Positions 32,941-56,865 of a stretch of DNA of 64,000 nt are shown here, in pieces. The translations under genes were made by a program, and so were the position numbers. A model generated the notes under the pieces. That model did no database searches. It worked only from the letters and a program-made list of their open reading frames with translations, and was not told the origin of the DNA. Position 1 is the first letter of the stretch. Every line of letters begins with the position of its first letter. This DNA is from Shigella phage JK32: sequence record MK962753.1, one strand, 5' to 3'.

Positions 32941-33153
32941 TTATAATGCACCATCAAGCAATTGCTCTAAGGTGTATCCTGAATAGTCTTTTTCAATCAG
33001 GATATATTTTCCTACTCGTTTAATCCAACCGCGCATTTCAACGTATTCTGCGTAGTTGATGGTACGAGTTGTTCCATCTTCCAGTAATGCAGTACCGATT
33101 TCGTTGATGCGGTCATAAGTTACGTCGGTAATGATGATTTCGATGTTAGCCAT
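32941..33153 (-). CDS. Hypothetical early protein (70 aa)
   Basis: ORF immediately downstream of an early promoter cassette with RBS AAGGAG. Confidence 0.55.
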   Translation of the reverse strand: MANIEIIITDVTYDRINEIGTALLEDGTTRTINYAEYVEMRGWIKRVGKYILIEKDYSGYTLEQLLDGAL

Positions 33154-33184
33154 TTGATACTCCTTAGTAGTTCGTTTCGGTATG

Positions 33185-33225
33185 TGTGCATTATAGGGGA
33201 TCGATGATCCCCTGTCAACAACTTT
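33185..33225 (-). promoter_or_regulatory. Early sigma70-type promoter cassette with palindromic spacer (PeSL-like), copy 1
   Basis: Minus strand TTGACA-17 nt (GGGGATCATCGATCCCC)-TATAAT, then conserved leader ..CGAAACGA..AAGGAG..ATG. Confidence 0.65.
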
Positions 33226-33744
33226 TTAGTTATTTTTTAATTGCTCATCTTGCAATAAAGCAATCACATGCTGGCGATGTTCTTCCGATTGAGGCACACC
33301 GAAAAAGTTTGTTTTGTAGAAATACTCTAATCGGTCTTCTCGTGTGCTCTCTTCCATCATGATCGCGGGTAGTCCGAGATTTCGGAAACGTCGCTTTTCT
33401 GCTGGCGTAAAATCGCTGTAATACAGCATAGAATCATCATTACCAGCAATGCTAAACTCATCCTTCATGAAGGAGAATATTGCGTTTAAACGCTGTTTAC
33501 CGTCCACTATTTCGATTTCATAGCGAGAGCCATCATCAATCTTAGCCATTGCGATAGCACCAACCGGAAAATCATTAATCAGGTTTTCGATAAACATACG
33601 TTTGTTTTCTGTGTCCCATACTAAAGGACGCTGATAATCTGGGTTCATGTTGATATAGCCATCTTCTAACCATGCATCATAAACAGAGATGACAAAGTTT
33701 TTAGTATTGGTATAGTAACGGCGTTTAGGCGTTAAACGGTTCAT
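33226..33744 (-). CDS. DUF262/ParB-like nuclease domain protein
   Basis: Motifs DYQRPLVW...FPVGAI...IVDGKQRLNAI match the DUF262 (GmrSD N-terminal-like) signature; start at ATG 33744 with RBS AGGAGA (ORF track gives 33780). Confidence 0.6.
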   Translation of the reverse strand: MNRLTPKRRYYTNTKNFVISVYDAWLEDGYINMNPDYQRPLVWDTENKRMFIENLINDFPVGAIAMAKIDDGSRYEIEIVDGKQRLNAIFSFMKDEFSIAGNDDSMLYYSDFTPAEKRRFRNLGLPAIMMEESTREDRLEYFYKTNFFGVPQSEEHRQHVIALLQDEQLKNN

Positions 33745-33745
33745 G

Positions 33746-34078
33746 TTATAGTCTCCTGAATGGATCATCACGTAAATCAATATCTTTTAAGAACTCATCC
33801 CATGAATGGCGGATATTGTTCTTAATTCTCCAGATAAGCGCAGGGATTGAACGCTCTCCCATCTGGAAGTAAGGATCATATGATCCGTATGCCCAATATG
33901 CTACTACAATTCCACAATCAGCGCAATAGTATTCTATTTCACTTGCTGGCGACCAAAGTCCATCAATATGATCGGTGATCTTGCTTTCGATGTTATGGCT
34001 ATGGCAATCAGGGCAACGGATGCAATGACCTTGTTTATCGTAATTTGACGTTAGCGAATACTTAAACAATCTCATCAT
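33746..34078 (-). CDS. Zn-ribbon protein (CxxC...CxxC)
   Basis: 110 aa with CIRCPDCHSH and CADCG pairs; stop abuts next start. Confidence 0.5.
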   Translation of the reverse strand: MMRLFKYSLTSNYDKQGHCIRCPDCHSHNIESKITDHIDGLWSPASEIEYYCADCGIVVAYWAYGSYDPYFQMGERSIPALIWRIKNNIRHSWDEFLKDIDLRDDPFRRL

Positions 34079-34791
34079 AGATCCTTATTGGCTTCAAATA
34101 CTGCCTTTGCGAATCCTCGCGGGGTAAGTGACCTGATAGTCTTTGTTCTGGTTCCTTTTCCGCCTAGCTTAGAATGCTGTTTGCTGTACCCTTTATTAAT
34201 CGGCAACGGTTTCTTTTCTGGCATTATAAAGCCTTGTCCGGTCCATAAGCAAGTCTTTTTCGGGTACATATCACGGGAGGCAATATACTCAGGAAACGTA
34301 GGATGTATATCATCTTCCGGCAAATAACCGCCATATTCCCACGGATGGAACATGTAATCAGGCTTACGCCACATACTAGAGATAACGCTTACAGGATTCT
34401 CTATCATGTAGGGAACTCCTAGCCATTCACCCAAATAAGCGGTTATTTTAGCTGCCCGTACATCATGAACTTGAATCAATGGTCCTTGCTCTCGTTTCTT
34501 TCGTTCAAAGTGTGCAGCGCCACTAACAGCTAAATTGGTGCACGGTGGGAATGCAAATATAATATCCGGTTTCCCCCATTCAAGGTCCATTGCTCTTTCC
34601 AGCCAGTTCAAATCAATCCATGTGTTTACATAGGTAATGTTTGGATGTTCAAATCGGGTATTATACTTTTTGTATGTGCCGTGGTCGCCATCGTCAGCAT
34701 TAAAGCAGATCACCTTATGACCTGCTTTAGCCCATTCTAGCCCCATTATCCCCGATCCGTCAAAGTTGCAGAATATTAATTTTTGTTTCAC
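34075..34791 (-). CDS. C5-cytosine methyltransferase-like protein (motifs I, IV, VI only)
   Basis: FCNFDGSGIMGLEWAKAG (motif I-like), IIFAFPPCTNLAVSGA (PC motif IV-like), VPYMIENPVS (ENV motif VI-like); only 238 aa, no recognisable target-recognition domain. Confidence 0.5.
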   Translation of the reverse strand: MKQKLIFCNFDGSGIMGLEWAKAGHKVICFNADDGDHGTYKKYNTRFEHPNITYVNTWIDLNWLERAMDLEWGKPDIIFAFPPCTNLAVSGAAHFERKKREQGPLIQVHDVRAAKITAYLGEWLGVPYMIENPVSVISSMWRKPDYMFHPWEYGGYLPEDDIHPTFPEYIASRDMYPKKTCLWTGQGFIMPEKKPLPINKGYSKQHSKLGGKGTRTKTIRSLTPRGFAKAVFEANKDL

Positions 34792-35039
34792 GCTGCCCCC
34801 ATTGGTTTGATAGTAACAGAATCTAAAAGACCTTTGTTAGCCAGTTCGCGGCAAGTTTTCAGATCCGTAACTTCCCAGCCAGCCGCAATCAGGTTATCGA
34901 TGAGGATGTTAGCAACTTCCTCGCTCATGAAAGAGCACTGTTTGCCGATGGTGTAGCGTACACGCTGTAATTTCAGTTTACGGAAGCCTTTAACGTTCAG
35001 GTCTTTAGCGATTTTCTTTGCGGTTTCGATGTTAGCCAT
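34788..35039 (-). CDS. Hypothetical early protein (83 aa), first gene of coupled operon
   Basis: Preceded by promoter cassette and RBS AGGAGA; ATGA overlap with next gene. Confidence 0.55.
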   Translation of the reverse strand: MANIETAKKIAKDLNVKGFRKLKLQRVRYTIGKQCSFMSEEVANILIDNLIAAGWEVTDLKTCRELANKGLLDSVTIKPMGAA

Positions 35040-35074
35040 TGTTTGATTCTCCTAAGTAGTATCTCGTCTTGATG

Positions 35075-35115
35075 TGTGTAGTATAGGGGATCTCCCGATC
35101 CCCGTCAACAACTTT
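35075..35115 (-). promoter_or_regulatory. PeSL-like early promoter cassette, copy 2
   Basis: TTGACG-17 nt (GGGATCGGGAGATCCCC)-TATACT on minus strand. Confidence 0.6.
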
Positions 35116-35123
35116 TTTTAAAA

Positions 35124-35405
35124 TTATTCGTGATTAGTTTCGATGTTGTACATTTTGCACCAGTTCAGCCAATCGCCCAGATCTTGATAGTTGATGCTTT
35201 TATCTGCTGCCATCGTTTTTGTCTTGATACCCATATGTGCGTTATGAGTAAGCATTTTTACAGTGAACTCAATTTTATCGCCTTTAGCTTTAACATCAAC
35301 CAGTTTGGTCCACTGGCTACCAGCGCCGCGAATGTTCATACCAACGATGTTTCCGATGTATGCTTCTTTGTTTTTCAGGATTTCGGTTGCTTTGATGAAT
35401 TTCAT
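35124..35405 (-). CDS. Hypothetical early protein (93 aa)
   Basis: ORF with RBS GGAGAG downstream of promoter cassette. Confidence 0.55.
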   Translation of the reverse strand: MKFIKATEILKNKEAYIGNIVGMNIRGAGSQWTKLVDVKAKGDKIEFTVKMLTHNAHMGIKTKTMAADKSINYQDLGDWLNWCKMYNIETNHE

Positions 35406-35434
35406 TTTTGACTCTCCAGTTCGTTTCGGTATGG

Positions 35435-35475
35435 GTGTATTATGCTATGTTCTTACTTTGGTGTCAACAACTTTT
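35435..35475 (-). promoter_or_regulatory. Early promoter cassette, copy 3 (no palindrome in spacer)
   Basis: TTGACA-17 nt-CATAAT with conserved CGAAACGA leader. Confidence 0.55.
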
Positions 35476-35745
35476 TTAGATATTTTCAGAAATAAATTTT
35501 AAAACTTGACGTAAATGCTTCTCATCTTTGATAGTCGCCGGAAGTTCTTCTTTTACTTCCTGTGCAAGATAGATATTGCCGTTCCAAGTGAAAGATCCGT
35601 CTTCGTTTACGCGATAGCTGAACATCCATTCGCAATCATTTTCGATTTCATATACACACAGAAGGGTGTAATCTTCAAAGCTATTGATTTCAAGGTCGAG
35701 GCCGTGACGTTTTGCAAAGTTGGTAGTGGTTTTAGTCAATGCCAT
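35476..35745 (-). CDS. Hypothetical early protein (89 aa)
   Basis: ORF downstream of promoter cassette. Confidence 0.55.
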   Translation of the reverse strand: MALTKTTTNFAKRHGLDLEINSFEDYTLLCVYEIENDCEWMFSYRVNEDGSFTWNGNIYLAQEVKEELPATIKDEKHLRQVLKFISENI

Positions 35746-35779
35746 TGTTTGATTCTCCTAAGTAGTATCTCGTTTCGAT

Positions 35780-35820
35780 GGGTGTATTATGATATAGGCG
35801 TGATCTGGTGTCAACAACTT
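35780..35820 (-). promoter_or_regulatory. Early promoter cassette, copy 4
   Basis: TTGACA-17 nt-CATAAT. Confidence 0.55.
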
Positions 35821-35835
35821 TTTTAAAATTTAGGC

Positions 35836-35859
35836 AATAAAAAGCCGACACTAAGGTCG
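35836..35859 (-). terminator. Rho-independent terminator (minus strand)
   Basis: GCCGAC-ACTAAG-GTCGGC hairpin plus U-run on minus transcript; near-identical copy at 36341..36364. Confidence 0.6.
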
Positions 35860-35866
35860 GCACATT

Positions 35867-36184: not shown

Positions 36185-36254
36185 TCACTTCGTATTTGAC
36201 TCCATCGGCGATAGCTTTTACTTTATACCATCCATGCTTGTATAAAATCTTCAT
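36075..36254 (-). CDS. Small hypothetical protein (59 aa)
   Basis: ATG with RBS GAGGGA downstream of promoter cassette. Confidence 0.4.
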   Translation of the reverse strand: MKILYKHGWYKVKAIADGVKYEVIVFDGFNTYCEDVKLPSMGCAYDYCKQRIDNKANCF

Positions 36255-36284
36255 CTTTATTTCCCTCAATCTCGTTTCGATGGG

Positions 36285-36325
36285 TGTATTATGCTATACA
36301 CAGGATCTAGTGTCAACAACTTTTT
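36285..36325 (-). promoter_or_regulatory. Early promoter cassette, copy 5
   Basis: TTGACA-17 nt-CATAAT. Confidence 0.55.
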
Positions 36326-36340
36326 AAAATTTTATGCAAT

Positions 36341-36364
36341 AAAAAAGCCGACACTAAGGTCGGC
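36341..36364 (-). terminator. Rho-independent terminator (minus strand)
   Basis: Same GCCGACACTAAGGTCGGC hairpin as at 35836. Confidence 0.6.
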
Positions 36365-36372
36365 TAATAAAA

Positions 36373-36678: not shown

Positions 36679-36728
36679 AGTATTATCCTCAATAGTTGGA
36701 TGAAAAGGGGGCTTAACGCCCCCATATA

Positions 36729-37016
36729 TTAAAACAGTCCTTCCTGTACACCGTAGTAGAGTTCGTCGCTGATAATTTCATTAATGCGACGGTGTGCATA
36801 TTCCTGATTTGCGAAGTTGTCAGCAAGTTCTACTTTAGTTTCGCCGTCATGAGTCCATTTAGTGATAACTTTACCGTCTGCAAATTTGAAGTTGAACTCT
36901 TTAGCTACTGCATCGCGTACCAGACGTGCAAACTTATTGTTGCGGATTGCATTATCGGTTTCGTGTGCAGCGTGAGCAAATTTGTTAACTTTCAGCGTGA
37001 TAGTGATGTATGCCAT
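36729..37016 (-). CDS. Hypothetical early protein (95 aa)
   Basis: ORF with RBS GGAGAA downstream of promoter cassette. Confidence 0.55.
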   Translation of the reverse strand: MAYITITLKVNKFAHAAHETDNAIRNNKFARLVRDAVAKEFNFKFADGKVITKWTHDGETKVELADNFANQEYAHRRINEIISDELYYGVQEGLF

Positions 37017-37059
37017 AATTTGATTCTCCTAGTTAGAAAGTGTATCTCGTTTCGATGGG

Positions 37060-37100
37060 TGTATTATGCAATACACCCGATCTTATGTCAACACTTTTTA
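37060..37100 (-). promoter_or_regulatory. Early promoter cassette, copy 6
   Basis: TTGACA-17 nt-CATAAT. Confidence 0.55.
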
Positions 37101-37391
37101 TAAAATAATTTTTTGATATTTTTCTATGATGTTCGTGTAATCCACATCAACCGCTATCACCGTTGCTTCGAATCCACCGTTTAGCCAATGGCTATGGTCA
37201 TGATCGTGAAAGAAACCAAGACCAGTACGAAGACCTTCTTTATATTCGGCGCGTACATTTAGATCATCATCGATAAACAGATAAAACCATGAATTTTTAC
37301 TAGGATTGATGATACAACCTTTCAGATTAGGGAGAATATCACGACTAAGAATAAACTTATCACCTACTTTGAACATAATATTAGTCCTCAC
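37098..37391 (-). CDS. HxHW-family paralogue 2
   Basis: 97 aa; FYLFIDDDL...HDHDHSHW...VIAVDV. Confidence 0.6.
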   Translation of the reverse strand: MRTNIMFKVGDKFILSRDILPNLKGCIINPSKNSWFYLFIDDDLNVRAEYKEGLRTGLGFFHDHDHSHWLNGGFEATVIAVDVDYTNIIEKYQKIIL

Positions 37392-37701
37392 TTATAAGGT
37401 CAAACCAATTGTTTTTCGCATAATGCTTAATGCGTGCTTGATCTGCTTCCGCTGGTGATAGATTCCATGCAACCACTACAACTTCTGACGCATCGTCATC
37501 CGTTTCTGATACCCAATGATTATGATTCATACAATTGTTTGCTATCGCGTGAGCAAATGATTTCATCACTGGAGACGTATAATCATAGTAACGGATTTTC
37601 AGATTTTCATCAACGTACAAATAGATCGTATAAGGTTTATATTCAGTAACCAGTAACAGACAGTTACGCAATTCTGGGAAAATATTTTTAGTTAATTTCA
37701 T
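37381..37701 (-). CDS. HxHW-family paralogue 3 (divergent)
   Basis: 106 aa; IYLYVDENL...NHNHW...VVVVAWNL. Confidence 0.55.
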   Translation of the reverse strand: MKLTKNIFPELRNCLLLVTEYKPYTIYLYVDENLKIRYYDYTSPVMKSFAHAIANNCMNHNHWVSETDDDASEVVVVAWNLSPAEADQARIKHYAKNNWFDLISED

Positions 37702-37903
37702 ATTCTAGTTCTCCGTAATACACGGTAATCCATTTTTCTTCATACTTTGTATCTTTCCAACACACAATCCCGTTTACTGTGCAATCTTTGGAATTGACGA
37801 ATGATTCATATTGTTCTGCATCTTCCATCATTGCATGAGCGGTCTTTTCATCGAATATATCGCAGATCGCTTTATATGCTCGATAATCTTTAAATTTGCT
37901 CAT
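37688..37903 (-). CDS. Small protein, tandem paralogue A (MSKFKDY...)
   Basis: Start placed at ATG 37903; homologous to next ORF (MSKFKDY.AY, MMEDA, GIV.WK.T.Y...WI.V). Confidence 0.5.
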   Translation of the reverse strand: MSKFKDYRAYKAICDIFDEKTAHAMMEDAEQYESFVNSKDCTVNGIVCWKDTKYEEKWITVYYGELEYEIN

Positions 37904-37905
37904 AA

Positions 37906-38115
37906 TTAAGACCACTCAAGAGTTTTTGAAAACACATCTATCCATTGTTGAGTATATGCGGTTTCTTTCCATGATACAATACCAGTCGAATAATGGTTTT
38001 TGTTTCCAGAAAAGGACGGGCATTTTGAGGCATCTTCCATCATCTTTTCGGCGAACTCTGGTTCGTATACTCGCAAGATCTGTTGATATGCTTTATAATC
38101 TTTAAATTTGCTCAT
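37906..38115 (-). CDS. Small protein, tandem paralogue B (MSKFKDY...)
   Basis: 69 aa; paralogue of 37688..37903. Confidence 0.5.
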   Translation of the reverse strand: MSKFKDYKAYQQILRVYEPEFAEKMMEDASKCPSFSGNKNHYSTGIVSWKETAYTQQWIDVFSKTLEWS

Positions 38116-38392: not shown

Positions 38393-38572
38393 TTAGAAAG
38401 GGATGGTCATTTCTTGAGCTTGTACATTCTCGTTAGGATTAAACTTCATCCAACCGATATTGTCTACCAGCATATGCACATTTTTATCATATCCTACGTG
38501 AGTAGTCAATACTGTATGTGCTTTACCTTCAACGATGATTTCCATGTACTTCTGAACTTCGATAGCTTTCAT
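38393..38572 (-). CDS. Small hypothetical protein (59 aa)
   Basis: ATG preceded by GGAGAATCAAA leader of a promoter cassette; not in ORF track (below cutoff). Confidence 0.4.
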   Translation of the reverse strand: MKAIEVQKYMEIIVEGKAHTVLTTHVGYDKNVHMLVDNIGWMKFNPNENVQAQEMTIPF

Positions 38573-38599
38573 TTTGATTCTCCGTTTGTTGTCTTGATG

Positions 38600-38640
38600 G
38601 GAGTATCTTACTACTCCCTTTAATCATTGTCAACGATTAT
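38600..38640 (-). promoter_or_regulatory. Early promoter cassette, copy 7 (weaker -10)
   Basis: TTGACA-17 nt (palindrome GGGAGTA..TACTCCC)-TAAGAT. Confidence 0.45.
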
Positions 38641-38804
38641 TTGTTAATTTCCGGTGCGTTGCTTGGATAGTAACCTTCTTTAACACCCAGATATTTTGCA
38701 ACCATTCCGGTGATCTTCTGTGCTACTACGATATCGAATTTCAGGTAGTCTTCACCGTGGTTTGCTACAATGTATGCTTCGCATTCTGCTTTAGTCTGGA
38801 ACAT
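38637..38804 (-). CDS. Small hypothetical protein (55 aa)
   Basis: Start at ATG 38804 with RBS GGAGAA; the longer ORF-track form 38637..38840 would translate the promoter -10. Confidence 0.45.
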   Translation of the reverse strand: MFQTKAECEAYIVANHGEDYLKFDIVVAQKITGMVAKYLGVKEGYYPSNAPEINK

Positions 38805-38834
38805 TTTTGATTCTCCTATATCTCGTTGGTATGT

Positions 38835-38875
38835 GTGCATTATAGGGGATCGGTGACCCCCCTGTCAACAACTTT
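38835..38875 (-). promoter_or_regulatory. PeSL-like early promoter cassette, copy 8
   Basis: TTGACA-18 nt (GGGGGTCACCGATCCCC)-TATAAT. Confidence 0.6.
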
Positions 38876-39178
38876 TTATTCTTCGTCTTTATCTTTATAT
38901 GCGTATTTCATAAATTTGTCTGCCACTTCGTCCGCGTTTTCAGGTTCTACGTCTGACGCTAGGACAACAGCTAGTTCGGTTTTGTCGTTTCCATCATACC
39001 AATGATTATGAGTGTCGTTTTCTTCGATATAAAACGAATCATTTGGAGATGGGCGACAATATACGTCTAAATTCCCATCGATATAAAAGATCCAATCCGA
39101 ATACAAAATGATTGTTTTAGCCAGATTTTTATTGTCTCTTACAAAAGGTTCCGCGACAAATAGCTTAGTTTGTTCCAT
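38876..39178 (-). CDS. HxHW-family paralogue 5
   Basis: Start at ATG 39178 with RBS GAGGAG; IFYIDGNL...DTHNHW...AVVLASDV. Confidence 0.6.
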   Translation of the reverse strand: MEQTKLFVAEPFVRDNKNLAKTIILYSDWIFYIDGNLDVYCRPSPNDSFYIEENDTHNHWYDGNDKTELAVVLASDVEPENADEVADKFMKYAYKDKDEE

Positions 39179-39781: not shown

Positions 39782-39961
39782 TTACATAACAATCACGCCA
39801 GCCGTTGAAAGTTGATGTTTCAACTGAGCATTTTCTGCTACTGTCAAATCAATGATTTCTTGTGACGCTGCAATCATATAACCATTGGTGATATTGTTTT
39901 GCATCAGTTCAATGGTTTCTTCGTTGTAGCGGATTTTAGCGATGATTTCGTTGAAGTTCAT
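39782..39961 (-). CDS. Small hypothetical protein (59 aa)
   Basis: ATG directly after promoter-cassette leader GGAGAATCAAAC; below ORF-track cutoff. Confidence 0.4.
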   Translation of the reverse strand: MNFNEIIAKIRYNEETIELMQNNITNGYMIAASQEIIDLTVAENAQLKHQLSTAGVIVM

Positions 39962-39989
39962 GTTTGATTCTCCTAGTTCGTTTCGGTAT

Positions 39990-40030
39990 GTGTGTAGTAT
40001 AGGGGATCACCGATCCCCTGTCAACAACTT
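39990..40030 (-). promoter_or_regulatory. PeSL-like early promoter cassette, copy 9
   Basis: TTGACA-17 nt (GGGGATCGGTGATCCCC)-TATACT. Confidence 0.6.
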
Positions 40031-40037
40031 TTTTGAA

Positions 40038-40514
40038 TTATTTTTCTTGATGCTCGCGCTCGTACTTTTCGAAATAAAATTCTACTGGCTGGTCGTGGAT
40101 TGACAGTAAGCCAAAGCGTTTAGCCGCTCGCAACCCCATATTGCGCTGAATGTACTTCTGGAAGTTCTCGCGTATACACTTACGCCAGTATTCTAAGCCC
40201 ATACAGCTTTTATAAAGATTGCATTGCACACACGCCGGATTCATGTTATCAAGTATATCATGCTCCGGTTTATGCATTCCTACAACCTTATACTTCCACG
40301 ATCCATCATCATTACGGGCAATTCGTCCATTTTCATCATAGACTACTTTTGAGCGTCGTAATACTGGTTTGATGTGGTCTGCGTGCCAGCGATCCCCTAG
40401 TTCCTCGCCACAATAGGCACAACGTCCACCATATTTCATTTTCAGGATCTGGCGTTGCTCTTTCTTTGACAATTTTTTAGGTTTAGGGGCTTTCGCCCCT
40501 TCATTATCACACAT
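40038..40514 (-). CDS. HNH endonuclease
   Basis: CAYCGEEL....WHADHIKP......CVQCN is a classic HNH motif; sits directly upstream of DNA ligase, overlapping its stop. Confidence 0.7.
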   Translation of the reverse strand: MCDNEGAKAPKPKKLSKKEQRQILKMKYGGRCAYCGEELGDRWHADHIKPVLRRSKVVYDENGRIARNDDGSWKYKVVGMHKPEHDILDNMNPACVQCNLYKSCMGLEYWRKCIRENFQKYIQRNMGLRAAKRFGLLSIHDQPVEFYFEKYEREHQEK

Positions 40515-47419: not shown

Positions 47420-47818
47420 TTAACTTTCCAGAATATCGCGAGCTTCGTTACGCTCCTTGATGATTTTCAGGACAAATTCCAGTTTTTCTTTGTTCAGTGT
47501 TCCGTTTTCCATTGCTTCTTTGACGGTAAGCACTCCGCCACCTTGCCCGTATACAGTGACAGTGATTTCACCTAACATCGTGGTATGAAAACCGCCAATT
47601 TTCGGTGATTCGAAAGAAACAATCACCTCACGGATAGTATTGCCATCGTTGATTTCTTCCAGCGTAATATCGCTTTTGTAAGCGGTTGCTTTAACCATAC
47701 GGATCAGCATAGTCTGATCTGGGGAGATGGTCATTTTGTCCATTGCATGTTGCAATGCAGCGTAACCGAAAACTTTAACGAAGTCCAGAACGTCTTTGCG
47801 AGTTTGAAATTTAATCAT
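47420..47818 (-). CDS. Hypothetical early protein (132 aa)
   Basis: ORF with RBS AAGGAG downstream of promoter cassette. Confidence 0.55.
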   Translation of the reverse strand: MIKFQTRKDVLDFVKVFGYAALQHAMDKMTISPDQTMLIRMVKATAYKSDITLEEINDGNTIREVIVSFESPKIGGFHTTMLGEITVTVYGQGGGVLTVKEAMENGTLNKEKLEFVLKIIKERNEARDILES

Positions 47819-47854
47819 CTTGATACTCCTTAGTAAGTTAGTTTCGTTTCGATG

Positions 47855-47895
47855 GGGGTATATTACTACCCCCGTTTCAGGCTGTCAACTACTTT
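47855..47895 (-). promoter_or_regulatory. PeSL-like early promoter cassette, copy 10
   Basis: TTGACA-17 nt-TAATAT; palindrome GGGGGTA..TACCCCC overlaps the -10. Confidence 0.6.
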
Positions 47896-48107
47896 TTAAT
47901 GACAAGTTCGAATTTTGCTACCTTACGTCCTCGTTTATTGAAAGCAACCCACGGACGGTTTTCAATGTAGAACAATTCTTCACCAATAATGAATACTGGC
48001 TGATTGTAAAGGCGACCCATCAGGTCACGCTGGCGAATGGTAGTAGATTCGTATACTTCGCCTACTACAAAGTGTTTGCTGATAGAGTCGGTGCAGATAA
48101 ATTTCAT
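47889..48107 (-). CDS. Hypothetical early protein (72 aa)
   Basis: Start at ATG 48107 with RBS AAGGAGA; the ORF-track N-terminal extension (..SKQRRIKMK) would translate the promoter leader. Confidence 0.5.
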   Translation of the reverse strand: MKFICTDSISKHFVVGEVYESTTIRQRDLMGRLYNQPVFIIGEELFYIENRPWVAFNKRGRKVAKFELVIKK

Positions 48108-48129
48108 TTTGATTCTCCTTTGTTTCGAT

Positions 48130-48170
48130 GGGGGTATATTACTACCCCCGCTATTCAGTGTCAACTACTT
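48130..48170 (-). promoter_or_regulatory. PeSL-like early promoter cassette, copy 11
   Basis: Near-identical to copy 10: TTGACA-17 nt-TAATAT with GGGGGTA..TACCCCC. Confidence 0.6.
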
Positions 48171-48171
48171 T

Positions 48172-48390
48172 TTACTTGTTGTATTCATTCCACCATTGGG
48201 TTAGCTTATCAATTATTTTTGTGTTTCTATCCAACTTCTCCCACCGTTTTCGAGGGTTTATCAACCGGAATAGGTAAGGTGTACTTGTTAAGTGAACTCG
48301 GTCAATGTAGTGATTGATGTACTGCTTTTCAATTCTAAGTTTCATCTTTTTACGATGAAAATATGCAATGACTTGTTCTTCTGTTTCCAT
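48172..48390 (-). CDS. Hypothetical early protein (72 aa)
   Basis: ORF with RBS GGAGGA downstream of promoter cassette. Confidence 0.5.
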   Translation of the reverse strand: METEEQVIAYFHRKKMKLRIEKQYINHYIDRVHLTSTPYLFRLINPRKRWEKLDRNTKIIDKLTQWWNEYNK

Positions 48391-48409
48391 ATGTTCCTCC
48401 GTTTCGATG

Positions 48410-48450
48410 TGCGTATTATGCTATGGTAAGATCCGATTGTCAACACCCAA
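48410..48450 (-). promoter_or_regulatory. Early promoter cassette, copy 12
   Basis: TTGACA-17 nt-CATAAT. Confidence 0.55.
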
Positions 48451-48454
48451 TAAC

Positions 48455-48479
48455 AAAAAAGTCGCCACTATGGGCGACT
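48455..48479 (-). terminator. Rho-independent terminator (minus strand)
   Basis: AGTCGCC..GGCGACT hairpin plus U-run on minus transcript. Confidence 0.6.
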
Positions 48480-48490
48480 TTGAACAAACA

Positions 48491-50480: not shown

Positions 50481-50647
50481 TATCCGACAACCTCAAAACA
50501 TTTATCATCAGGAAGAATAGCCCATTCTACGCCGTATTCATCCTCAACGTAGTAGCAAGTCCCATCATGTCGAGCATCATATACATCACCGACAACAAAG
50601 CTATCAGCTAGCTCAAAATCTACAGCAACACATTTTAATTTTGCCAT
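50480..50647 (-). CDS. Small hypothetical protein (55 aa)
   Basis: Start at ATG 50647 with RBS GAGGA; the ORF-track upstream extension would translate the promoter. Confidence 0.45.
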   Translation of the reverse strand: MAKLKCVAVDFELADSFVVGDVYDARHDGTCYYVEDEYGVEWAILPDDKCFEVVG

Positions 50648-50674
50648 AATAAAATCCTCATTTGTTTTTGATGG

Positions 50675-50712
50675 TTGTATTATAGCGGGGATTTCTCCCC
50701 GCGTCAACACTT
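50675..50712 (-). promoter_or_regulatory. PeSL-like early promoter cassette, copy 13
   Basis: TTGACG-17 nt (CGGGGAGAAATCCCCGC)-TATAAT. Confidence 0.6.
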
Positions 50713-50715
50713 ATT

Positions 50716-52959
50716 TTACAGTTTGCAAGATGAACATTCGCTAGCGTCTTCCGTACCATCAGCACCATCACGCACGTTAGCGTAATACAGTGTCTTGAGA
50801 CCGTAATATTGAGCAAACAACATATCATCTAATACATCAGCAATATCGACTTTACCAGTCTTATAAGTGCTTGGATCGTAGGATGTATTGGAACTAATCG
50901 CCTGATCTACAAACTTCTGCATGATCGCTGCCAGTGTCAGATAAGGCTTGTTACCTTTCTTGATCAGTGTCCAAAGCAGGTCAATAACATCAGCATTATT
51001 CTCTACGTTCGGAATAACCTGATTAAATTGCCCTTCTTTCGATCCTTTAACCGATACAATCCCGCGAGGCGGTTCAATACCGTTTGTGCTGTTAGACACC
51101 TGAGAAGACGACTCACAAGGCATCAGAGCCGAAAGCGTACTGTTACGAATGCCATATTTTTTCAGGTCTTCGCGCAGTTCTTCCCAATCCATCTCATACA
51201 CCGGATCAACCAGTTCATCTACTGTCTTTTTGTACCAGTCGATAGGCAGTTCACCGCGACCATAACGTGTTTCGTGCATCAGTTCGCAAGCACCCTTCTC
51301 TTTAGCCAGTTGCACACTAGCCTTAATCAGAGCATATTGCAAGCGTTCAAACGTTTTATGCGTAAACTCGTTAGCGTCTTCATATGTGAAGAAATTATCC
51401 GCCAGATACGATGCAAAGTTAGTCACGCCAACACCCAGAGAGCGACGTTTTTTGGCTGTCAGAGCTTGTTCTACAGGATAATCCTGATAATCTAACAGGT
51501 TGTCAAGTGCACGCACCATAACCATAGCAATGCGTTCTACTTCTTCCATGTTTTCGATATCGAAATTACCTAAAACATATGCTGCCAAAGTACATAGGCT
51601 GATCTCTGAATCATCACGCCCCATTGGTTTAGTAGGCAGTGCAATTTCGCAACACAGGTTAGATTGTTTAATCGGTGCTACATTGCGAATAAACGCCCCG
51701 TGATTGTTCATGTTGTCTGTGAATGCTGGATAGATTCGACCAGTGTTAAAACGTTCAATCGCCACCGCTAAAAATAGGTCTTCGGCTTTAACACGAGTTT
51801 TACGAACACTCGGATCTTTTTCCAGTTTTTCGTAAAGCTGGCGGAAACCTTCCTCATCTCGGAAGTACAGATCCCACAACAAGCCACCCGCAACATCTGG
51901 ACTAAACAGAGTAATGTAATCCCGTTTAAGGAATCGCTCTACCATCAGGTTATTAATCTGTACGCCGTAATCAAGATGACGAATGCGGTTATCTTCTACC
52001 CCTTTGTTATTCTTCAACACAATAAGACTTTCAAATTCTAAATGCCACATTGGGTAATAGAGAGTCGCTGCCCCGCCACGAATACCGCCTTGTGAGCATG
52101 ACTTAACGGCAGTCTGAAAATGTTTCCAGAATGGGATAACGCCAGTATGACGAACTTCACCATGCCCGATCTTAGATCCTTCCGCGCGAATCATGCCAGC
52201 GTTGATACCGATACCAGCACGCTTGCTAATATACTTGATGATTGCATTTGCGGTTTCATTAATACCCTGCAATGAATCATCAGATTCGATCACCACACAC
52301 GAACTAAATTGTCGTGTTGGAGTACGCACACCCGCCATAATCGGAGTAGGCAGAGAGATTTGCTTATTCGCAACAGCATTATAAAAATCAATCACATGTT
52401 CAAGTCGATTTTCTGTCTCTTCTTGATGTAAGCACATACCGATCAACATATACGCAAATTGCGGTGTTTCAATGATTTTCTTAGTGCTGCGATCCTGAAC
52501 AAGATATTTCTCTTTTAACTGCATCGCACCCGCATAGGTCATTTTAAAATCAAGTTTATGGTCGATAAATTTCTCCAAATATTCCACTTCTTCACGGGAA
52601 TACTTTTGCAGAATTTCACGATCATATTTTCCGGTTGCAATATTACGCTCAATATGGCTGTAAAAATCACTCGGTTGGAATTGACCGTATACTGATTTAC
52701 GAAGCGCGAACATTGCAAGGTTACTTGCTACATATTGATAATCAGGAGTTTCTACAGTGATGTTATCTGCGGCGACCTTAATCAATACTTTCTGGATATC
52801 ATTGGTAGACATACCTTCTGTCAGAAGTGGTTCAACCATATCAAACAATTCATATGGATCAACGTTATGACCTTCGGCTGCCGCTTCCAAAATTTTCATT
52901 ACTTTTTCTTTTTCAAACGGAACAGTCAGACCGGAAGACTTAACAACATTTTTAATCAT
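50716..52959 (-). CDS. nrdA: Ribonucleotide reductase large subunit NrdA
   Basis: 747 aa; ATP-cone N-terminus, class I RNR alpha features, C-terminal CSSCKL-type tail. Confidence 0.92.
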   Translation of the reverse strand: MIKNVVKSSGLTVPFEKEKVMKILEAAAEGHNVDPYELFDMVEPLLTEGMSTNDIQKVLIKVAADNITVETPDYQYVASNLAMFALRKSVYGQFQPSDFYSHIERNIATGKYDREILQKYSREEVEYLEKFIDHKLDFKMTYAGAMQLKEKYLVQDRSTKKIIETPQFAYMLIGMCLHQEETENRLEHVIDFYNAVANKQISLPTPIMAGVRTPTRQFSSCVVIESDDSLQGINETANAIIKYISKRAGIGINAGMIRAEGSKIGHGEVRHTGVIPFWKHFQTAVKSCSQGGIRGGAATLYYPMWHLEFESLIVLKNNKGVEDNRIRHLDYGVQINNLMVERFLKRDYITLFSPDVAGGLLWDLYFRDEEGFRQLYEKLEKDPSVRKTRVKAEDLFLAVAIERFNTGRIYPAFTDNMNNHGAFIRNVAPIKQSNLCCEIALPTKPMGRDDSEISLCTLAAYVLGNFDIENMEEVERIAMVMVRALDNLLDYQDYPVEQALTAKKRRSLGVGVTNFASYLADNFFTYEDANEFTHKTFERLQYALIKASVQLAKEKGACELMHETRYGRGELPIDWYKKTVDELVDPVYEMDWEELREDLKKYGIRNSTLSALMPCESSSQVSNSTNGIEPPRGIVSVKGSKEGQFNQVIPNVENNADVIDLLWTLIKKGNKPYLTLAAIMQKFVDQAISSNTSYDPSTYKTGKVDIADVLDDMLFAQYYGLKTLYYANVRDGADGTEDASECSSCKL

Positions 52960-54489: not shown

Positions 54490-54581
54490 TATTGTTCCCG
54501 TCCGCAATGTAAACACCGACTACCAGCAAACATCAAAGATTCACCACAATGTTTGCACTCATAATCTGTCAGAATTTTCAT
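54489..54581 (-). CDS. Mini zinc-ribbon ORF (30 aa, CxxC...CxxC)
   Basis: ATG with RBS GAAGGTG; two CxxC pairs. Confidence 0.3.
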   Translation of the reverse strand: MKILTDYECKHCGESLMFAGSRCLHCGREQ

Positions 54582-54582
54582 G

Positions 54583-55152: not shown

Positions 55153-55167
55153 AATATAAATCTCCCA

Positions 55168-55497
55168 TCAAATCAGTTTGAAATAGTTTTCGTTTACATT
55201 TTCTTCTGTGATTGCTGTCTTAAATTCTTGACCGTTATCCGGTGTGATGAAATAACGGTCAGAATAATCACGAAAACGTTTTAAGTGAGATACCCCAACA
55301 TTAACACCATTTTCCCAGAAACGAAAGGTAATCATTTTTGGTTCATATCGATAGTCGCTGGTTAACACAGTACCATCCCCGCGACGGGCTTCATAAACCG
55401 TAATACATTCACGATTGGCGGCTTTTAGGCATTCTTCAATAGTGCCACATGAGATAATACTTACTTTTTCATCTACGATTTGTTCTACAGTCCACAT
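55168..55497 (-). CDS. Hypothetical early protein (109 aa)
   Basis: Start at ATG 55497 with RBS AGAGGA downstream of promoter cassette. Confidence 0.5.
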   Translation of the reverse strand: MWTVEQIVDEKVSIISCGTIEECLKAANRECITVYEARRGDGTVLTSDYRYEPKMITFRFWENGVNVGVSHLKRFRDYSDRYFITPDNGQEFKTAITEENVNENYFKLI

Positions 55498-55524
55498 AAT
55501 ATAATCCTCTCTTTGTTTCGATAT

Positions 55525-55562
55525 GTACATTATACACTATTGCGTTACGCTGTCAACTCTTT
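55525..55562 (-). promoter_or_regulatory. Early promoter cassette, copy 14
   Basis: TTGACA-16 nt (contains GCGTAACGC palindrome)-TATAAT. Confidence 0.55.
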
Positions 55563-56783
55563 TTCAAAAGTTTTTACGATATACATGATAGTGCTCAATT
55601 CTGACGGCGCTACTGTTTCTGTGTAGCCATCCGGCATATCTTCTTTTGAGATATAGGAAGTTTTACCTTTCATCGCTTCCTTGATCTTGTTCTCTAATTC
55701 TAAGATCTTTTGACCATCTTGTAAAGTCAATTCATAAAAGATCTCGTGATCGAATTTAGATTTTGCTGATTGGTTTCTCATACGTTCTCTTGTTGTCAAA
55801 TTGGTTATTCCAAATTTAACACCTTCAAAAACGTCTCGTCTTAACAATTTTTGAATATATAATGTTCCTTGTTTTAAACGTTTGTAACCAGATTTCGTAC
55901 ACGAAGGACATCTCTTATGCGTTCTTGTTATGCTATGTATAGTTGGTGTCCAGACGCTACCACATCCACATAACATTGATATTCTTGTTGATGACCCGTT
56001 ATACTCATCGATAATTCCATTATATTTGATGTTTTCGGATTTACATATAGAGTATATTATTTTTTCATAGTGCTCTAATGGTTTAATTCTAAGACTTGAA
56101 TTATTTTTATATGCACATATTCTGCAATTATAACCTCTAAGAAAACTAGTTACATCAGTTGTATATGCGTGACCTCCGGTGCATTGTATAGTAAGTTTGG
56201 TATCATGTGTGATATCGTTATCAAGTAAAGTTATTATTTTGTAATTAATTGCTGAACATCTTTTCAAGATTTCTGATTTGTAATACGTTGATTTTTTATT
56301 CGTCTCTTGTATATTTTTTGTGTGACATTGTGGACATCTAGTTCCTTTCTTGGTGAAATGTGTTACTGTTGGTGTATATATGTGTCCATCTAAACATTCA
56401 ATCATTATTTTTGTTTTTAATTTATTCGAAGTCCATTCACCAACAACGCCACGATATTTCAACTTTTCGGATTTACATATTTCTATAATTTGTTTCTCTT
56501 GTTGTTCTTTTGTTATATATTCTCGCTTCTTGCTTTTTTGTTTTGCACATTTTGGGCATCTACTGCCTTGTTTTATACTAGATACGATAGGTTCCCAATA
56601 ATGACCGCACTTACAAAGTAAGGCCGTGCGAGTTCTATTCCCGATACATTCACCAATAAACCCCAAAAAGTTTATATCATCGGAAGAACACACATCGTGC
56701 ATAAATTTTTCATGTTCTAACATCTTTTTAATTTTGCTGGTGGATAGCATATTGACTATATCTTTAACGAAATATGTTTTCAT
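55545..56783 (-). CDS. Zn-ribbon-repeat protein with conserved C-terminal domain ending PDGYTET (paralogue of 20168..21253)
   Basis: Four tandem C.CGH.(W/Y).PT.........CP.C modules, then C-terminal LYIQKL...VKFGIT...R..R...PDGYTET domain; start at ATG 56783. Confidence 0.6.
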   Translation of the reverse strand: MKTYFVKDIVNMLSTSKIKKMLEHEKFMHDVCSSDDINFLGFIGECIGNRTRTALLCKCGHYWEPIVSSIKQGSRCPKCAKQKSKKREYITKEQQEKQIIEICKSEKLKYRGVVGEWTSNKLKTKIMIECLDGHIYTPTVTHFTKKGTRCPQCHTKNIQETNKKSTYYKSEILKRCSAINYKIITLLDNDITHDTKLTIQCTGGHAYTTDVTSFLRGYNCRICAYKNNSSLRIKPLEHYEKIIYSICKSENIKYNGIIDEYNGSSTRISMLCGCGSVWTPTIHSITRTHKRCPSCTKSGYKRLKQGTLYIQKLLRRDVFEGVKFGITNLTTRERMRNQSAKSKFDHEIFYELTLQDGQKILELENKIKEAMKGKTSYISKEDMPDGYTETVAPSELSTIMYIVKTFEKELTA

Positions 56784-56807
56784 TTTTATCCTCCGTTGTT
56801 TCGATGA

Positions 56808-56845
56808 GTGCATTATACATTATCTCGGATCGGTGTCAATACCTT
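56808..56845 (-). promoter_or_regulatory. Early promoter cassette, copy 15
   Basis: TTGACA-16 nt-TATAAT with conserved CGAAACAACGGAGGA leader. Confidence 0.55.
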
Positions 56846-56865
56846 TTCATAAAATTTTAGGCAAT

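What the first reader, a model, noticed from the sequence alone, without database searches (positions are those of the whole stretch)
33150..56850. Fifteen copies of a conserved early-promoter cassette with a GC-rich palindrome between -35 and -10 (PeSL-like elements)
Upstream of many minus-strand early ORFs there is a near-identical cassette of about 60-70 nt: AAGTTG-TTGACA-(16-18 nt spacer)-TATAAT/CATAAT/TAATAT, then a conserved leader (..CAC..ATCGAAACGA..), a strong RBS (AAGGAG/GGAGAA) and the ATG. In at least 8 copies the spacer itself is a perfect GC-rich inverted repeat (for example GGGGATCATCGATCCCC, GGGGATCGGTGATCCCC, CGGGGAGAAATCCCCGC). This matches what I recall of promoter-early-stem-loop elements described in RB49-group T4-like phages, proposed to drive modular gene shuffling. 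The palindrome could also be an operator for a regulator or a transcript-processing signal. Because the leader is conserved at the DNA level, several ORF-track entries show identical spurious N-terminal extensions (for example ..SKQRRIKMK in both 47889..48164 and 55545..56813).
Basis: partly seen in the sequence, partly recalled or inferred. Interest (0 to 1): 0.6.

Follow-up and report, generated by a model that had tools for sequence, protein, structure and literature searches.

The report
Known PeSL promoter cassettes, RB49-like phage
The window comes from an RB49-like T4-type coliphage, and the 15 repeated elements are the already published "PeSL" cassettes (strong early promoter, stem-loop and ribosome-binding site), which also sit where small genes have been gained or lost between related phages.

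Summary
The window is a Krischvirus (RB49-like) genome segment, 97% identical to phage Brandy. A profile built from the cassettes finds exactly 15 copies (E 5e-10 to 4e-18), all on the minus strand between 33,151 and 56,890; the next-best hit has E 0.006. Similarity runs well beyond the -35/-10 hexamers: an A-tract plus GTTG, TTGACA, a 16-18 nt spacer, the -10, an ACACCCATCGAAACGA leader, GGAGAATCAAA and the ATG.

One sub-claim is overstated. Only 5 copies have the GC-rich hairpin inside the spacer. Four have it across the -10, 4 have a canonical terminator hairpin just upstream of the -35, and 2 have none. These positions match subclasses published for PeSLs in phi1 and RB49 (Arbiol et al. 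2010).

The 15 downstream genes are unrelated to each other. Against seven relatives, 7-8 of 12 presence/absence loci have a breakpoint in a cassette, and four window cassettes are visible chimeras of the two PeSLs that flank a missing gene (ORF186, 191/192, 210/211, 226).

Verdict: already known, low interest. Minor additions are a RegB-like SD module and GATC enrichment in the spacers.

The parts
33151..33240 (-). PeSL cassette c33218. -35 at 33218-33213, -10 at 33195-33190, ATG at 33153. Hairpin GGGGATCATCGATCCCC lies inside the spacer. Drives a 70-aa ORFan (32941-33153). Chimera of the RB49 PeSLs 187/186 and 186/185; ORF186 is missing here.
35037..35130 (-). PeSL cassette c35108. -35 TTGACG at 35108-35103, -10 TATACT at 35085-35080, ATG at 35039. 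Spacer hairpin GGGGATCGGGAGATCCCC. Downstream ORF is 83 aa. Mosaic: upstream flank as the end of ORF193, promoter/hairpin as RB49 PeSL192/191, leader as PeSL191/190. ORF191/192 are missing here.
35403..35489 (-). PeSL cassette c35467. -35 at 35467-35462, -10 CATAAT at 35444-35439, ATG at 35405. No significant hairpin. Downstream ORF is 93 aa.
35743..35861 (-). PeSL cassette c35814. -35 at 35814-35809, -10 at 35791-35786, ATG at 35745. Its stem-loop is a canonical terminator (GCCGACCTTAGTGTCGGC then TTTTT, 35861-35844) upstream of the -35. Downstream ORF is 89 aa.
36252..36365 (-). PeSL cassette c36316. -35 at 36316-36311, -10 at 36293-36288, ATG at 36254. The same terminator hairpin as c35814 is duplicated upstream (36365-36346). 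A weak GTGTAT/ATACAC stem crosses the -10. Downstream ORF is 59 aa.
37014..37113 (-). PeSL cassette c37091. -35 at 37091-37086, -10 CATAAT at 37068-37063, ATG at 37016. Hairpin GGGTGTATT/AATACACCC spans the -10 and discriminator. Downstream ORF is 95 aa.
38570..38655 (-). PeSL cassette c38633. -35 at 38633-38628, -10 TAAGAT at 38610-38605, ATG at 38572. Hairpin GGGAGTA/TACTCCC spans the -10. Downstream ORF is 59 aa.
38802..38890 (-). PeSL cassette c38868. -35 at 38868-38863, 18-nt spacer, -10 at 38844-38839, ATG at 38804. Spacer hairpin GGGGGGTCACCGATCCCC. Positional ortholog of phi1 PeSL206/205, whose promoter activity was measured (about 13,000 Miller units). Downstream ORF is 55 aa.
39959..40046 (-). 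PeSL cassette c40024. -35 at 40024-40019, -10 TATACT at 40001-39996, ATG at 39961. Spacer hairpin GGGGATCGGTGATCCCC. Chimera of the PeSL upstream of ORF210 and PeSL210/209; ORF210 (and 211) are missing here. It is the genomic product expected from excision of the published ORF210 mini-circle. Downstream ORF is 59 aa.
47816..47910 (-). PeSL cassette c47888. -35 at 47888-47883, -10 TAATAT at 47865-47860, ATG at 47818. Hairpin GGGGGTA/TACCCCC spans the -10. Chimera of RB49 PeSL227/226 and 226/225; ORF226 is missing here. Downstream ORF is 132 aa.
48105..48186 (-). PeSL cassette c48164. -35 at 48164-48159, -10 TAATAT at 48141-48136, ATG at 48107. Hairpin GGGGGTA/TACCCCC spans the -10. Downstream ORF is 72 aa. 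The ORF-track start at the TTG of the -35 is spurious.
48388..48481 (-). PeSL cassette c48443. -35 at 48443-48438, -10 CATAAT at 48420-48415, ATG at 48390. Canonical terminator hairpin with T-tract (48481-48458) lies upstream of the -35. Downstream ORF is 72 aa.
50645..50729 (-). PeSL cassette c50707. -35 TTGACG at 50707-50702, -10 at 50684-50679, ATG at 50647. Spacer hairpin GCGGGGAGAAATCCCCGC. Sits between nrdA and a 55-aa ORFan.
55495..55578 (-). PeSL cassette c55556. -35 at 55556-55551, 16-nt spacer, -10 at 55534-55529, ATG at 55497. No strong hairpin. The stop codon of the upstream variable endonuclease ORF lies inside the spacer. Downstream ORF is 109 aa.
56781..56890 (-). PeSL cassette c56839. 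-35 at 56839-56834, 16-nt spacer, -10 at 56817-56812, ATG at 56783. Canonical terminator hairpin (56890-56869) lies upstream. Drives the variable 412-aa endonuclease-like ORF (55545-56783). The ORF-track start at 56813 (TATAATG) is spurious.

Best explanation
These are PeSLs (promoter-early stem-loops), the composite regulatory cassettes of RB49-group T4-type phages.

Each cassette fills the gap between two early genes, in this order:
(i) an A-rich UP-like tract that usually contains the upstream gene's stop codon;
(ii) a near-consensus sigma-70 promoter read by host RNA polymerase straight after infection;
(iii) a G-run/C-run stem-loop placed in the spacer, across the -10, or just upstream of the -35;
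(iv) a short A/C-rich, unstructured leader;
(v) a strong GGAG Shine-Dalgarno and the ATG.

The stem-loop is present only in transcripts that read through from upstream. It is inferred to terminate or attenuate them. Each small early gene is thereby insulated and re-fired from its own promoter.

Because 60-100 nt of near-identical sequence is repeated next to unrelated genes, the phage's homologous recombination machinery can cross over between copies. This deletes, inserts or swaps promoter-plus-gene modules.

Shown here: the anatomy, the copy number, the discreteness of the family, maintenance of the hairpins, and chimeric cassettes at indel junctions.

Shown by others on orthologous copies: promoter strength, terminator activity of one spacer-class stem-loop, and mini-circle formation.

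Inferred: that each of the 15 copies in this phage fires and terminates.
For: Identity of the genome. The window is 93-97% identical to Krischvirus genomes, including RB49 and Phi1.

Family. There are exactly 15 profile hits, all co-oriented with the genes. Conservation extends from the A-tract to the ATG.

Hairpins. Nine are embedded in the promoter, at about -10 to -14 kcal/mol for the isolated stem-loop; the 66-nt segments holding them fold with z-scores of -1.6 to -5.4. Four more are canonical terminators upstream of the -35. The published description gives the same subclasses.

Pairing is maintained. Across 137 copies in 8 genomes there are at least 9 different stem sequences. Examples are GGGGATC/GATCCCC, GGGGAG/CTCCCC, GCGGGGA/TCCCCGC, GGGGGTA/TACCCCC, GGGAGTA/TACTCCC, GGGTGTAT/ATACACCC and GGGGATAT/ATATCCCC. 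G-U intermediates occur and loops vary from 3 to 6 nt. Three pairs show compensatory changes on both sides.

Downstream genes. The 15 proteins share no significant similarity with each other, so tandem gene duplication does not explain the repeats.

Indels. Of 12 presence/absence loci against 7 relatives, 7-8 have a breakpoint in a cassette. The binomial P is 0.04-0.009 against a null of 30% of gene junctions, and 1e-3 to 1e-4 against a base-coverage null.

Junction alignments. Window cassettes 33218, 35108, 40024 and 47888 are chimeras of the two PeSLs that flank ORF186, ORF191/192, ORF210/211 and ORF226 in relatives. ORF192 and ORF210 are the loci where Arbiol et al. detected mini-circles.

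Published function. Reporter assays are described in PMC2839356. [quoted passage not shown]
Against: - No transcription, termination or recombination data exist for this particular phage.
- Two copies (35467, 55556) lack any convincing stem-loop.
- The four hairpins that span the -10 are followed by AUCGAAAC or AUCAAGAC, not a U-tract. A classical intrinsic-terminator role is therefore doubtful for that subclass. Only one spacer-class stem-loop was tested in the literature.
- Covariation rests on few independent substitutions, and on copies chosen because they fold.
- Four to five of the 12 indel loci are not at cassettes; they are homing-endonuclease-type insertions, ORF189.1, and a JSE-specific gene.
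- The statistical association is only modest under the conservative null.
Confidence: 0.93

Rival explanations
1. The GC-rich palindrome between -35 and -10 is an operator for a dimeric phage or host DNA-binding protein that switches the early promoters off (or on). It would not be an RNA structure.
For: A palindrome between the hexamers is the classical operator position. Four window copies share the arms GGGGATC/GATCCCC. Arbiol et al. themselves speculate that a protein may recognise GGGG...CCCC.
Against: The distance between the arms varies (loops of 3, 4, 5 and 6 nt). The arm sequence changes with compensation. The hairpin sits in at least three different registers relative to the hexamers, including upstream of the -35. 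Six of 15 otherwise equivalent promoters have nothing in the spacer. A sequence-specific dimer would need fixed half-sites and fixed spacing.
Confidence: 0.08
2. The stem-loops, at least those spanning the -10, are not terminators. They would be 3'-end stabilisers or processing signals for the upstream mRNA. Alternatively they act at the DNA level, as cruciform or single-strand hairpins that stimulate recombination.
For: The hairpins spanning the -10 have no U-tract. They are excluded from the transcript that starts at their own promoter, so only read-through RNA or DNA can carry them. In the literature, crossovers were mapped in or next to the stem-loop.
Against: One spacer-class stem-loop reduced lacZ read-through as strongly as rrnB T1. 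In this window the crossover zones fall in different parts of the cassette: the leader at junctions A and D, the -10/discriminator at C, and a three-part mosaic at B. This fits general homologous recombination, not a hairpin-specific cut.
Confidence: 0.25
3. The copies resemble each other only because each has been independently selected toward the optimal sigma-70 promoter and ribosome-binding site. On this view there is convergence, with no shared origin and no role in recombination.
For: The -35 and -10 are near consensus and the SD is strong, as expected for any highly expressed early gene.
Against: Non-functional or weakly constrained positions are shared: the leader ACACCCATCGAAACGAGATAC, exact runs of 25-31 nt between copies, and a duplicated upstream terminator. 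Other consensus promoters in the window do not match the profile. Chimeric junction cassettes show actual exchange.
Confidence: 0.03

Closest known systems
PeSLs (promoter-early stem-loops) of coliphages RB49 and phi1 (Arbiol, Comeau, Kutateladze, Adamia & Krisch 2010, Genome Biol Evol 2:140; PMC2839356)
   Same: Same genus, same genomic region (the alt-gene 30 hyperplastic region and the nucleotide-metabolism cluster) and the same module order. The stem-loop positions are among the published subclasses. The ORFan cargo is the same, and individual copies are orthologous (for example c38868 = PeSL206/205; c40024 descends from the PeSLs flanking ORF210). Indels coincide with cassettes.
   Different: Only the complement differs. 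This genome has 15 copies in the stretch where RB49 has 19 and Phi1 has 18. It lacks ORF186, 191, 192, 210, 211 and 226, with a single chimeric PeSL left at each site. No functional data exist for this isolate.
PeSL-like promoter-terminator motifs of other T4-like myoviruses (T4/PST, KVP40/nt-1; Comeau, Arbiol & Krisch 2014; PMC4122927)
   Same: Composite early promoter plus stem-loop at the borders of swapped genes in hyperplastic regions.
   Different: Those are analogues built on each phage's own early-promoter consensus. The sequence family found here is confined to Krischvirus: 58 of 60 GenBank phage records holding most of the cassette belong to that group.
T4 early promoters and RegB-sensitive GGAG translation-initiation regions
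   Same: A-rich UP-like tract, a strong -35/-10 and immediate-early expression of small non-essential genes. The SD module GGAGAATCAAA matches the T4 strong RegB/S1 site consensus GGAGRAYARAA at 10 of 11 positions.
   Different: The -35 is the host-like TTGACA rather than T4's GTTTAC. RegB cleavage of these leaders has not been tested, and RB49's RegB is divergent.
Morons and integron cassettes
   Same: Self-contained promoter + gene (+ terminator) units that are added to or removed from genomes.
   Different: Here the regulatory sequence itself provides the homology for exchange. No integrase or attC-type site-specific step is indicated, and the crossover points vary along the cassette.

Membership tests
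PeSL (RB49/phi1 type) | Sigma-70-consensus early promoter (-35 TTGACA, 16-18 nt spacer, -10 TATAAT-like) | tested here: met
   All 15 copies have at least 10 of 12 hexamer matches. Thirteen have TTGACA exactly and two have TTGACG. The spacer is 17 nt in 12 copies, 18 nt in 1 and 16 nt in 2.
PeSL (RB49/phi1 type) | [quoted passage not shown] | tested here: met
   The A-tract consensus is TAAAAAGTTG. In 10 copies the upstream stop lies 0-15 nt before the -35. In the 4 copies with an intervening terminator it lies 47-70 nt before. In c55556 it lies inside the spacer.
PeSL (RB49/phi1 type) | Stable stem-loop, often polyG...polyC, in one of five positions relative to the promoter | tested here: met
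   13 of 15 copies: 5 in the spacer, 4 across the -10, and 4 upstream of the -35 with a T-tract. The other 2 have none. The published definition also allows variable position.
PeSL (RB49/phi1 type) | Shine-Dalgarno sequence and start codon of the downstream gene at the 3' end | tested here: met
   All 15 copies have an SD and ATG 24-46 nt after the -10. GGAG is present in 12.
PeSL (RB49/phi1 type) | Intergenic, concentrated in hyperplastic regions, mostly upstream of ORFans | tested here: met
   Nine copies lie in the alt-gene 30 ORFan block (33.1-40.1 kb). The rest sit next to small hypothetical genes, or flank the variable endonuclease ORF. There are none in 1-30 kb or 57-64 kb. The downstream proteins are mutually unrelated.
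PeSL (RB49/phi1 type) | Coincidence with insertions, deletions and replacements between close relatives, leaving a chimeric PeSL | tested here: met
   7-8 of 12 polymorphic loci have a breakpoint in a cassette. Four junctions align as chimeras.
PeSL (RB49/phi1 type) | Measured promoter activity, terminator/attenuator activity and mini-circle formation | not testable with these tools
   Shown only for phi1/RB49 copies (PeSL206/205, 193/192, 211/210; the ORF192 and ORF210 mini-circles) in PMC2839356. Orthology to c38868 and c40024 is shown here.
Canonical rho-independent terminator | GC-rich hairpin immediately followed by a U-tract | tested here: inconclusive
   The feature is met by the 4 upstream hairpins. 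It is not met by the promoter-embedded hairpins. The spacer class is followed by UAUAAU or UAUACU. The class spanning the -10 is followed by AUCGAAAC or AUCAAGAC.
Rfam RNA families | Match to any curated covariance model at gathering score | tested here: not met
   No matches anywhere in the window.

The most novel reading that the evidence does not exclude
Each cassette may be more than a promoter plus insulator: a timed 'fire and self-destruct' unit. The invariant SD module GGAGAATCAAA would be a RegB/S1 cleavage site that inactivates these ORFan mRNAs minutes after infection. The GATC retained 2-4 nt downstream of the -35 (offset 8-10 from its first base) would tie promoter activity to the Dam-methylation state of injected versus newly replicated DNA. 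Neither feature is discussed in the PeSL papers.
Probability: 0.2. Interest if true: 0.4.

Novelty: already known. Interest (0 to 1): 0.15.

Why it matters
The result adds no new biology. It shows that the first-stage reader recognised a published element correctly from raw sequence. It also gives another natural example of PeSL-mediated module loss: single chimeric cassettes sit exactly where ORF186, 191/192, 210/211 and 226 lie in relatives, including the two loci where mini-circles were demonstrated experimentally.

For annotation, the practical points are these:
- the -35 TTG and the ATG of TATAATG create false gene starts;
- the 15 cassettes mark true starts of short early genes;
- hairpins that span the -10 and lack a U-tract remain functionally untested.

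Tried and rejected
- An Rfam scan of the whole window at gathering thresholds found nothing.
- Pfam gave no hit for the 238-aa methyltransferase. PHROGs only calls it 'DNA methyltransferase'. I therefore could not tell whether the phage has its own GATC (Dam) methylase, and I left the GATC idea as a side note.
- The RB49 5'-end-mapping paper (Desplats et al. 2002, PMC135041) is not held. The statement that the consensus agrees with mapped 5' ends is second-hand, from PMC1524935.
- A first breakpoint analysis with ordinary gapped blastn merged across indels and then crashed. I replaced it with a low-X-drop megablast chain.
- The repeat finder refuses minus-strand regions; I reran it on the plus strand.
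- Operator hypothesis: rejected as the main explanation because of variable half-site spacing, sequence and position.
- Tandem gene duplication as the source of the repeats: rejected because the downstream proteins are unrelated.
- Site-specific (attC-like) recombination at the hairpin: not favoured, because crossover zones differ between junctions.
- The promoter-like site at 30,803 has PeSL architecture (hairpin across the -10, then TTTT) but does not belong to the sequence family (E 4.3). I did not count it.

Full report
WHAT THE WINDOW IS. Megablast of 33.0-41.0 kb and of 32.8-57.2 kb against GenBank phages gives 93-97% identity to Krischvirus genomes, the RB49-like T4-type coliphages. The best match is phage Brandy (MZ504876, 97%), followed by RB49, Phi1, GEC-3S and JSE. 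The Phi1/RB49 annotation places the region between alt and gene 32. It comprises the ORFan-rich hyperplastic block between alt and gene 30 (DNA ligase), followed by the cd-pseT-rnlA-denA-nrdB-nrdA-td-frd cluster. All genes are on the minus strand.

CHECK OF THE OBSERVATION.
- The 12-mer AAGTTGTTGACA (up to 2 mismatches) occurs 24 times against 8.9 expected, and no shuffle reaches 24.
- A hexamer scan with context and an alignment define 15 cassettes. The first base of each -35 is at 33218, 35108, 35467, 35814, 36316, 37091, 38633, 38868, 40024, 47888, 48164, 48443, 50707, 55556 and 56839.
- An nhmmer profile built from that alignment finds exactly those 15 in the whole 64-kb window (E 4.6e-10 to 3.7e-18). 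All are on the minus strand. The next hit has E 0.006.
- Other consensus-grade sigma-70-like sites (13878, 57927, 60286) do not match. The site at 57927 corresponds to the early gene 32 promoter annotated in RB49. The family is therefore discrete, and the similarity is not limited to generic hexamers.
- The repeat finder recovers the same family independently.
- The consensus runs TAAAAAGTTG-TTGACA-(16-18 nt)-(T/C)ATAAT-ACACCCATCGAAACGA...GGAGAATCAAA..ATG.
- The claimed shared pseudo-extension SKQRRIKMK is real. ORF 47889..48164 'starts' at the TTG of the -35 itself, and ORF 55545..56813 at the ATG formed by TATAATG. The true starts are 48107 and 56783.

CORRECTION ON THE PALINDROMES. RNA folding, a stem search and the terminator scan give four groups.
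- Inside the spacer, 5 copies: 33218, 35108, 38868 (needs one G-U pair), 40024 and 50707.
- Across the -10 and discriminator, 4 copies: 37091, 38633, 47888 and 48164.
- Upstream of the -35, 4 copies: 35814, 36316, 48443 and 56839. These have no promoter-embedded hairpin but carry a canonical GC-hairpin-plus-T-tract terminator in the AT-rich region.
- None, 2 copies: 35467 and 55556.

'At least 8 with a perfect palindrome in the spacer' is therefore too strong; 9 have a GC-rich hairpin embedded in the promoter. These positions are among the subclasses described for PeSLs: between the boxes, overlapping a box, or upstream in the AT-rich region (PMC2839356).

ANATOMY.
- The upstream gene's stop codon lies 0-15 nt before the -35 in 10 copies. 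It lies 47-70 nt before where a terminator intervenes, and inside the spacer for c55556.
- The ATG follows the -10 by 24-46 nt.
- Twelve copies have GGAG in the SD.
- The downstream genes encode proteins of 55-132 aa with no known function, plus one variable 412-aa endonuclease-like ORF.
- These 15 proteins show no significant similarity to each other. Near-identical regulatory DNA is thus attached to unrelated cargo, which excludes simple tandem gene duplication.

IS THE HAIRPIN ITSELF SELECTED? Running the profile on the same region of seven relatives (Phi1, Brandy, RB49, JSE, kvi, PHB13, W115) yields 137 copies with 86 distinct cores.
- At least nine different stems occur. Examples are GGGGATC/GATCCCC, GGGGAG/CTCCCC, GCGGGGA/TCCCCGC, GGGGAT/ATCCCC, GGGGGTA/TACCCCC, GGGAGTA/TACTCCC, GGGTGTAT/ATACACCC and GGGGATAT/ATATCCCC.
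- G-U intermediates occur (GGGGGTA/TACTCCC, GGGGGTC/GATCCCC), and loops are 3-6 nt.
- On two ungapped alignments of the class that spans the -10, three pairs show changes on both sides (A-U/G-U/G-C; U-A to G-C; G-C to A-U). Cells are 93-99% paired, against 27-75% when the partner is slid.
- These counts rest on few events, and on copies selected for folding, so they are supportive rather than decisive.
- Taken with the variable arm spacing and variable position, they favour a nucleic-acid structure over a fixed protein operator.
- A hairpin in the spacer or across the -10 is not part of the transcript started at its own promoter. It can act only on read-through RNA from upstream, or on DNA.

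ASSOCIATION WITH GENE GAIN AND LOSS. Low-X-drop megablast chains against the seven relatives give 12 distinct loci with a net length difference of at least 100 bp between 32.9 and 57.0 kb. Seven have a breakpoint inside a cassette. An eighth (35861) falls on the terminator hairpin that belongs to cassette 35814. Cassettes occupy about 30% of the gene junctions and 8% of the bases. This gives binomial P of 0.039 for 7 events and 0.009 for 8 under the junction null, and 1e-3 to 1e-4 under the coverage null.

The junction sequences are more telling.
- c33218: its upstream half matches RB49 PeSL187/186 and its leader matches PeSL186/185. ORF186 is absent.
- c35108: the upstream flank is the end of ORF193, the promoter and hairpin are those of PeSL192/191, and the leader is that of PeSL191/190. 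ORF191 and ORF192 are absent.
- c40024: it joins the PeSL upstream of ORF210 to PeSL210/209. ORF210 and 211 are absent.
- c47888: it joins PeSL227/226 to PeSL226/225. ORF226 is absent.

ORF192 and ORF210 are the very loci where Arbiol et al. detected excised mini-circles carrying a chimeric PeSL. This genome carries the reciprocal deletion products. The crossover zones differ between junctions: the leader, the -10/discriminator, and a three-part mosaic. This fits general homologous recombination over 20-30 nt identity runs rather than a site-specific cut.

The loci that are not at cassettes are a homing-endonuclease replacement in JSE, a 612-bp gene insertion in PHB13, a JSE-specific small gene, and loss of ORF189.1.

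MECHANISM. Three steps are shown here, or in the literature for orthologous copies.
- PeSL206/205, the ortholog of c38868, drove about 13,000 Miller units, and most clones acquired down-mutations in the -35 or -10.
- The stem-loop of PeSL211/210 (spacer class) reduced read-through as strongly as rrnB T1.
- The RB49 early-promoter consensus is stated to agree with mapped early 5' ends.

It is inferred that every one of the 15 copies fires early and that every hairpin class terminates. The class spanning the -10 is followed by AUCGAAAC rather than a U-tract, so its terminator role is the weakest link. It may instead stabilise or process the upstream RNA.

COMPARISON AND NOVELTY. All sequence-level defining features of RB49/phi1 PeSLs are met (see the membership table), and only the wet-lab features are untestable here. 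The sequence family is genus-restricted: an 88-nt cassette finds 60 phage records, of which 58 hold at least 80% of it, essentially all Krischvirus, with about 7 places per genome at blastn sensitivity. Rfam has no corresponding family. The finding is therefore an already known element, correctly recognised.

SMALL ADDITIONS NOT IN THE PESL PAPERS (no mention of RegB, GATC or Dam).
(a) The SD module is identical (GGAGAATCAAA) in 7 copies. There are 9 window matches to GGAGRAYNRAA against 1.2 expected. It matches the T4 strong RegB/S1 cleavage consensus GGAGRAYARAA at 10 of 11 positions, and RB49 has a divergent regB (PMC3014915). This suggests the cassettes also programme rapid inactivation of these early mRNAs.
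(b) GATC occurs 12 times in the 15 -35..-10 intervals against 2.2 expected. It sits at offset 8-10 from the first base of the -35 in 8 copies, including 5 that lack the palindrome. This may reflect descent from GGGGATC-type spacers and chimeric recombination within spacers rather than selection for Dam sites. The copies are not independent, so the nominal P-value is not meaningful.

VERDICT. The novelty rating is 'already known' and the interest is low.

Noticed in passing
window 35042-35052, 35748-35758, 37019-37029, 38573-38583, 38806-38816, 39963-39973, 48108-48118, 56784-56794 (minus strand): The Shine-Dalgarno module is identical (GGAGAATCAAA) in 7 cassettes, and GGAGGATAAAA in an eighth. 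The window has 9 matches to GGAGRAYNRAA against 1.2 expected. This is nearly the T4 strong RegB/S1 cleavage consensus GGAGRAYARAA (PMC3014915), so these early leaders may be RegB targets. The PeSL papers do not discuss this.
   Followed up: partly
window, -35 to -10 intervals of cassettes 33218, 35108, 35814, 36316, 37091, 38868, 40024, 48443, 56839: GATC is enriched in the promoter spacers: 12 sites against 2.2 expected. It lies at a near-fixed offset of 8-10 nt from the start of the -35, also in 5 copies without a palindrome. It could be a Dam-methylation site in the promoter, or just inheritance from GGGGATC-type spacers. The specificity of the phage methyltransferase (34075-34791) could not be determined.
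   Followed up: partly
window 35844-35861 and 36346-36365 (minus strand): The same canonical terminator (GCCGACCTTAGTGTCGGC followed by TTTTTATTGC) is duplicated upstream of cassettes 35814 and 36316. The repeated unit there is therefore terminator plus promoter, about 120 nt. It brackets a segment (ORF195/196-like) that is absent from Phi1, JSE, kvi and PHB13.
   Followed up: partly
window 34775-34790: Six of the seven relatives compared (all but JSE) carry an extra 246-bp gene (ORF189.1) between the methyltransferase and ORF190. Here it is missing, with a 16-nt overlap at the junction and no cassette nearby. This is a gene loss that is not PeSL-mediated.
   Followed up: no
window 55545-56783 (minus strand): A variable 412-aa ORF with CapR-homology domains and a treble-clef zinc finger (PHROG 'endonuclease'/HNH) is bracketed by cassettes 56839 and 55556. 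It is absent in JSE and PHB13, replaced by a 330-bp gene in Brandy and kvi, and only its C-terminal ~70 codons align with ORF240 of Phi1/RB49. It also contains an internal 44-nt direct repeat (56005 and 56437).
   Followed up: partly
window 37818-37907 and 38030-38119: A 90-nt direct repeat (73% identity) covers the 5' ends of two adjacent small minus-strand genes (37688-37915 and 37906-38115). They appear to be tandem paralogues without a cassette between them.
   Followed up: no
window 30755-30820 (minus strand): Just downstream of alt there is a promoter-like site, TTGACT-17-TATACT. A strong hairpin (CGGGGACTAGT...ACTAGCCCCG, -20.6 kcal/mol) spans its -10 and is followed by TTTTCTG. It is PeSL-like in architecture but does not match the cassette profile (E 4.3).
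   Followed up: partly
window 33226-33744 (minus strand): The ORF187 homologue (172 aa from its ATG) matches the N-terminal DUF262 domain of GmrSD type IV restriction endonucleases (Pfam PF03235, E 6e-20). This is a short GmrSD_N-only protein in a phage early region.
   Followed up: no
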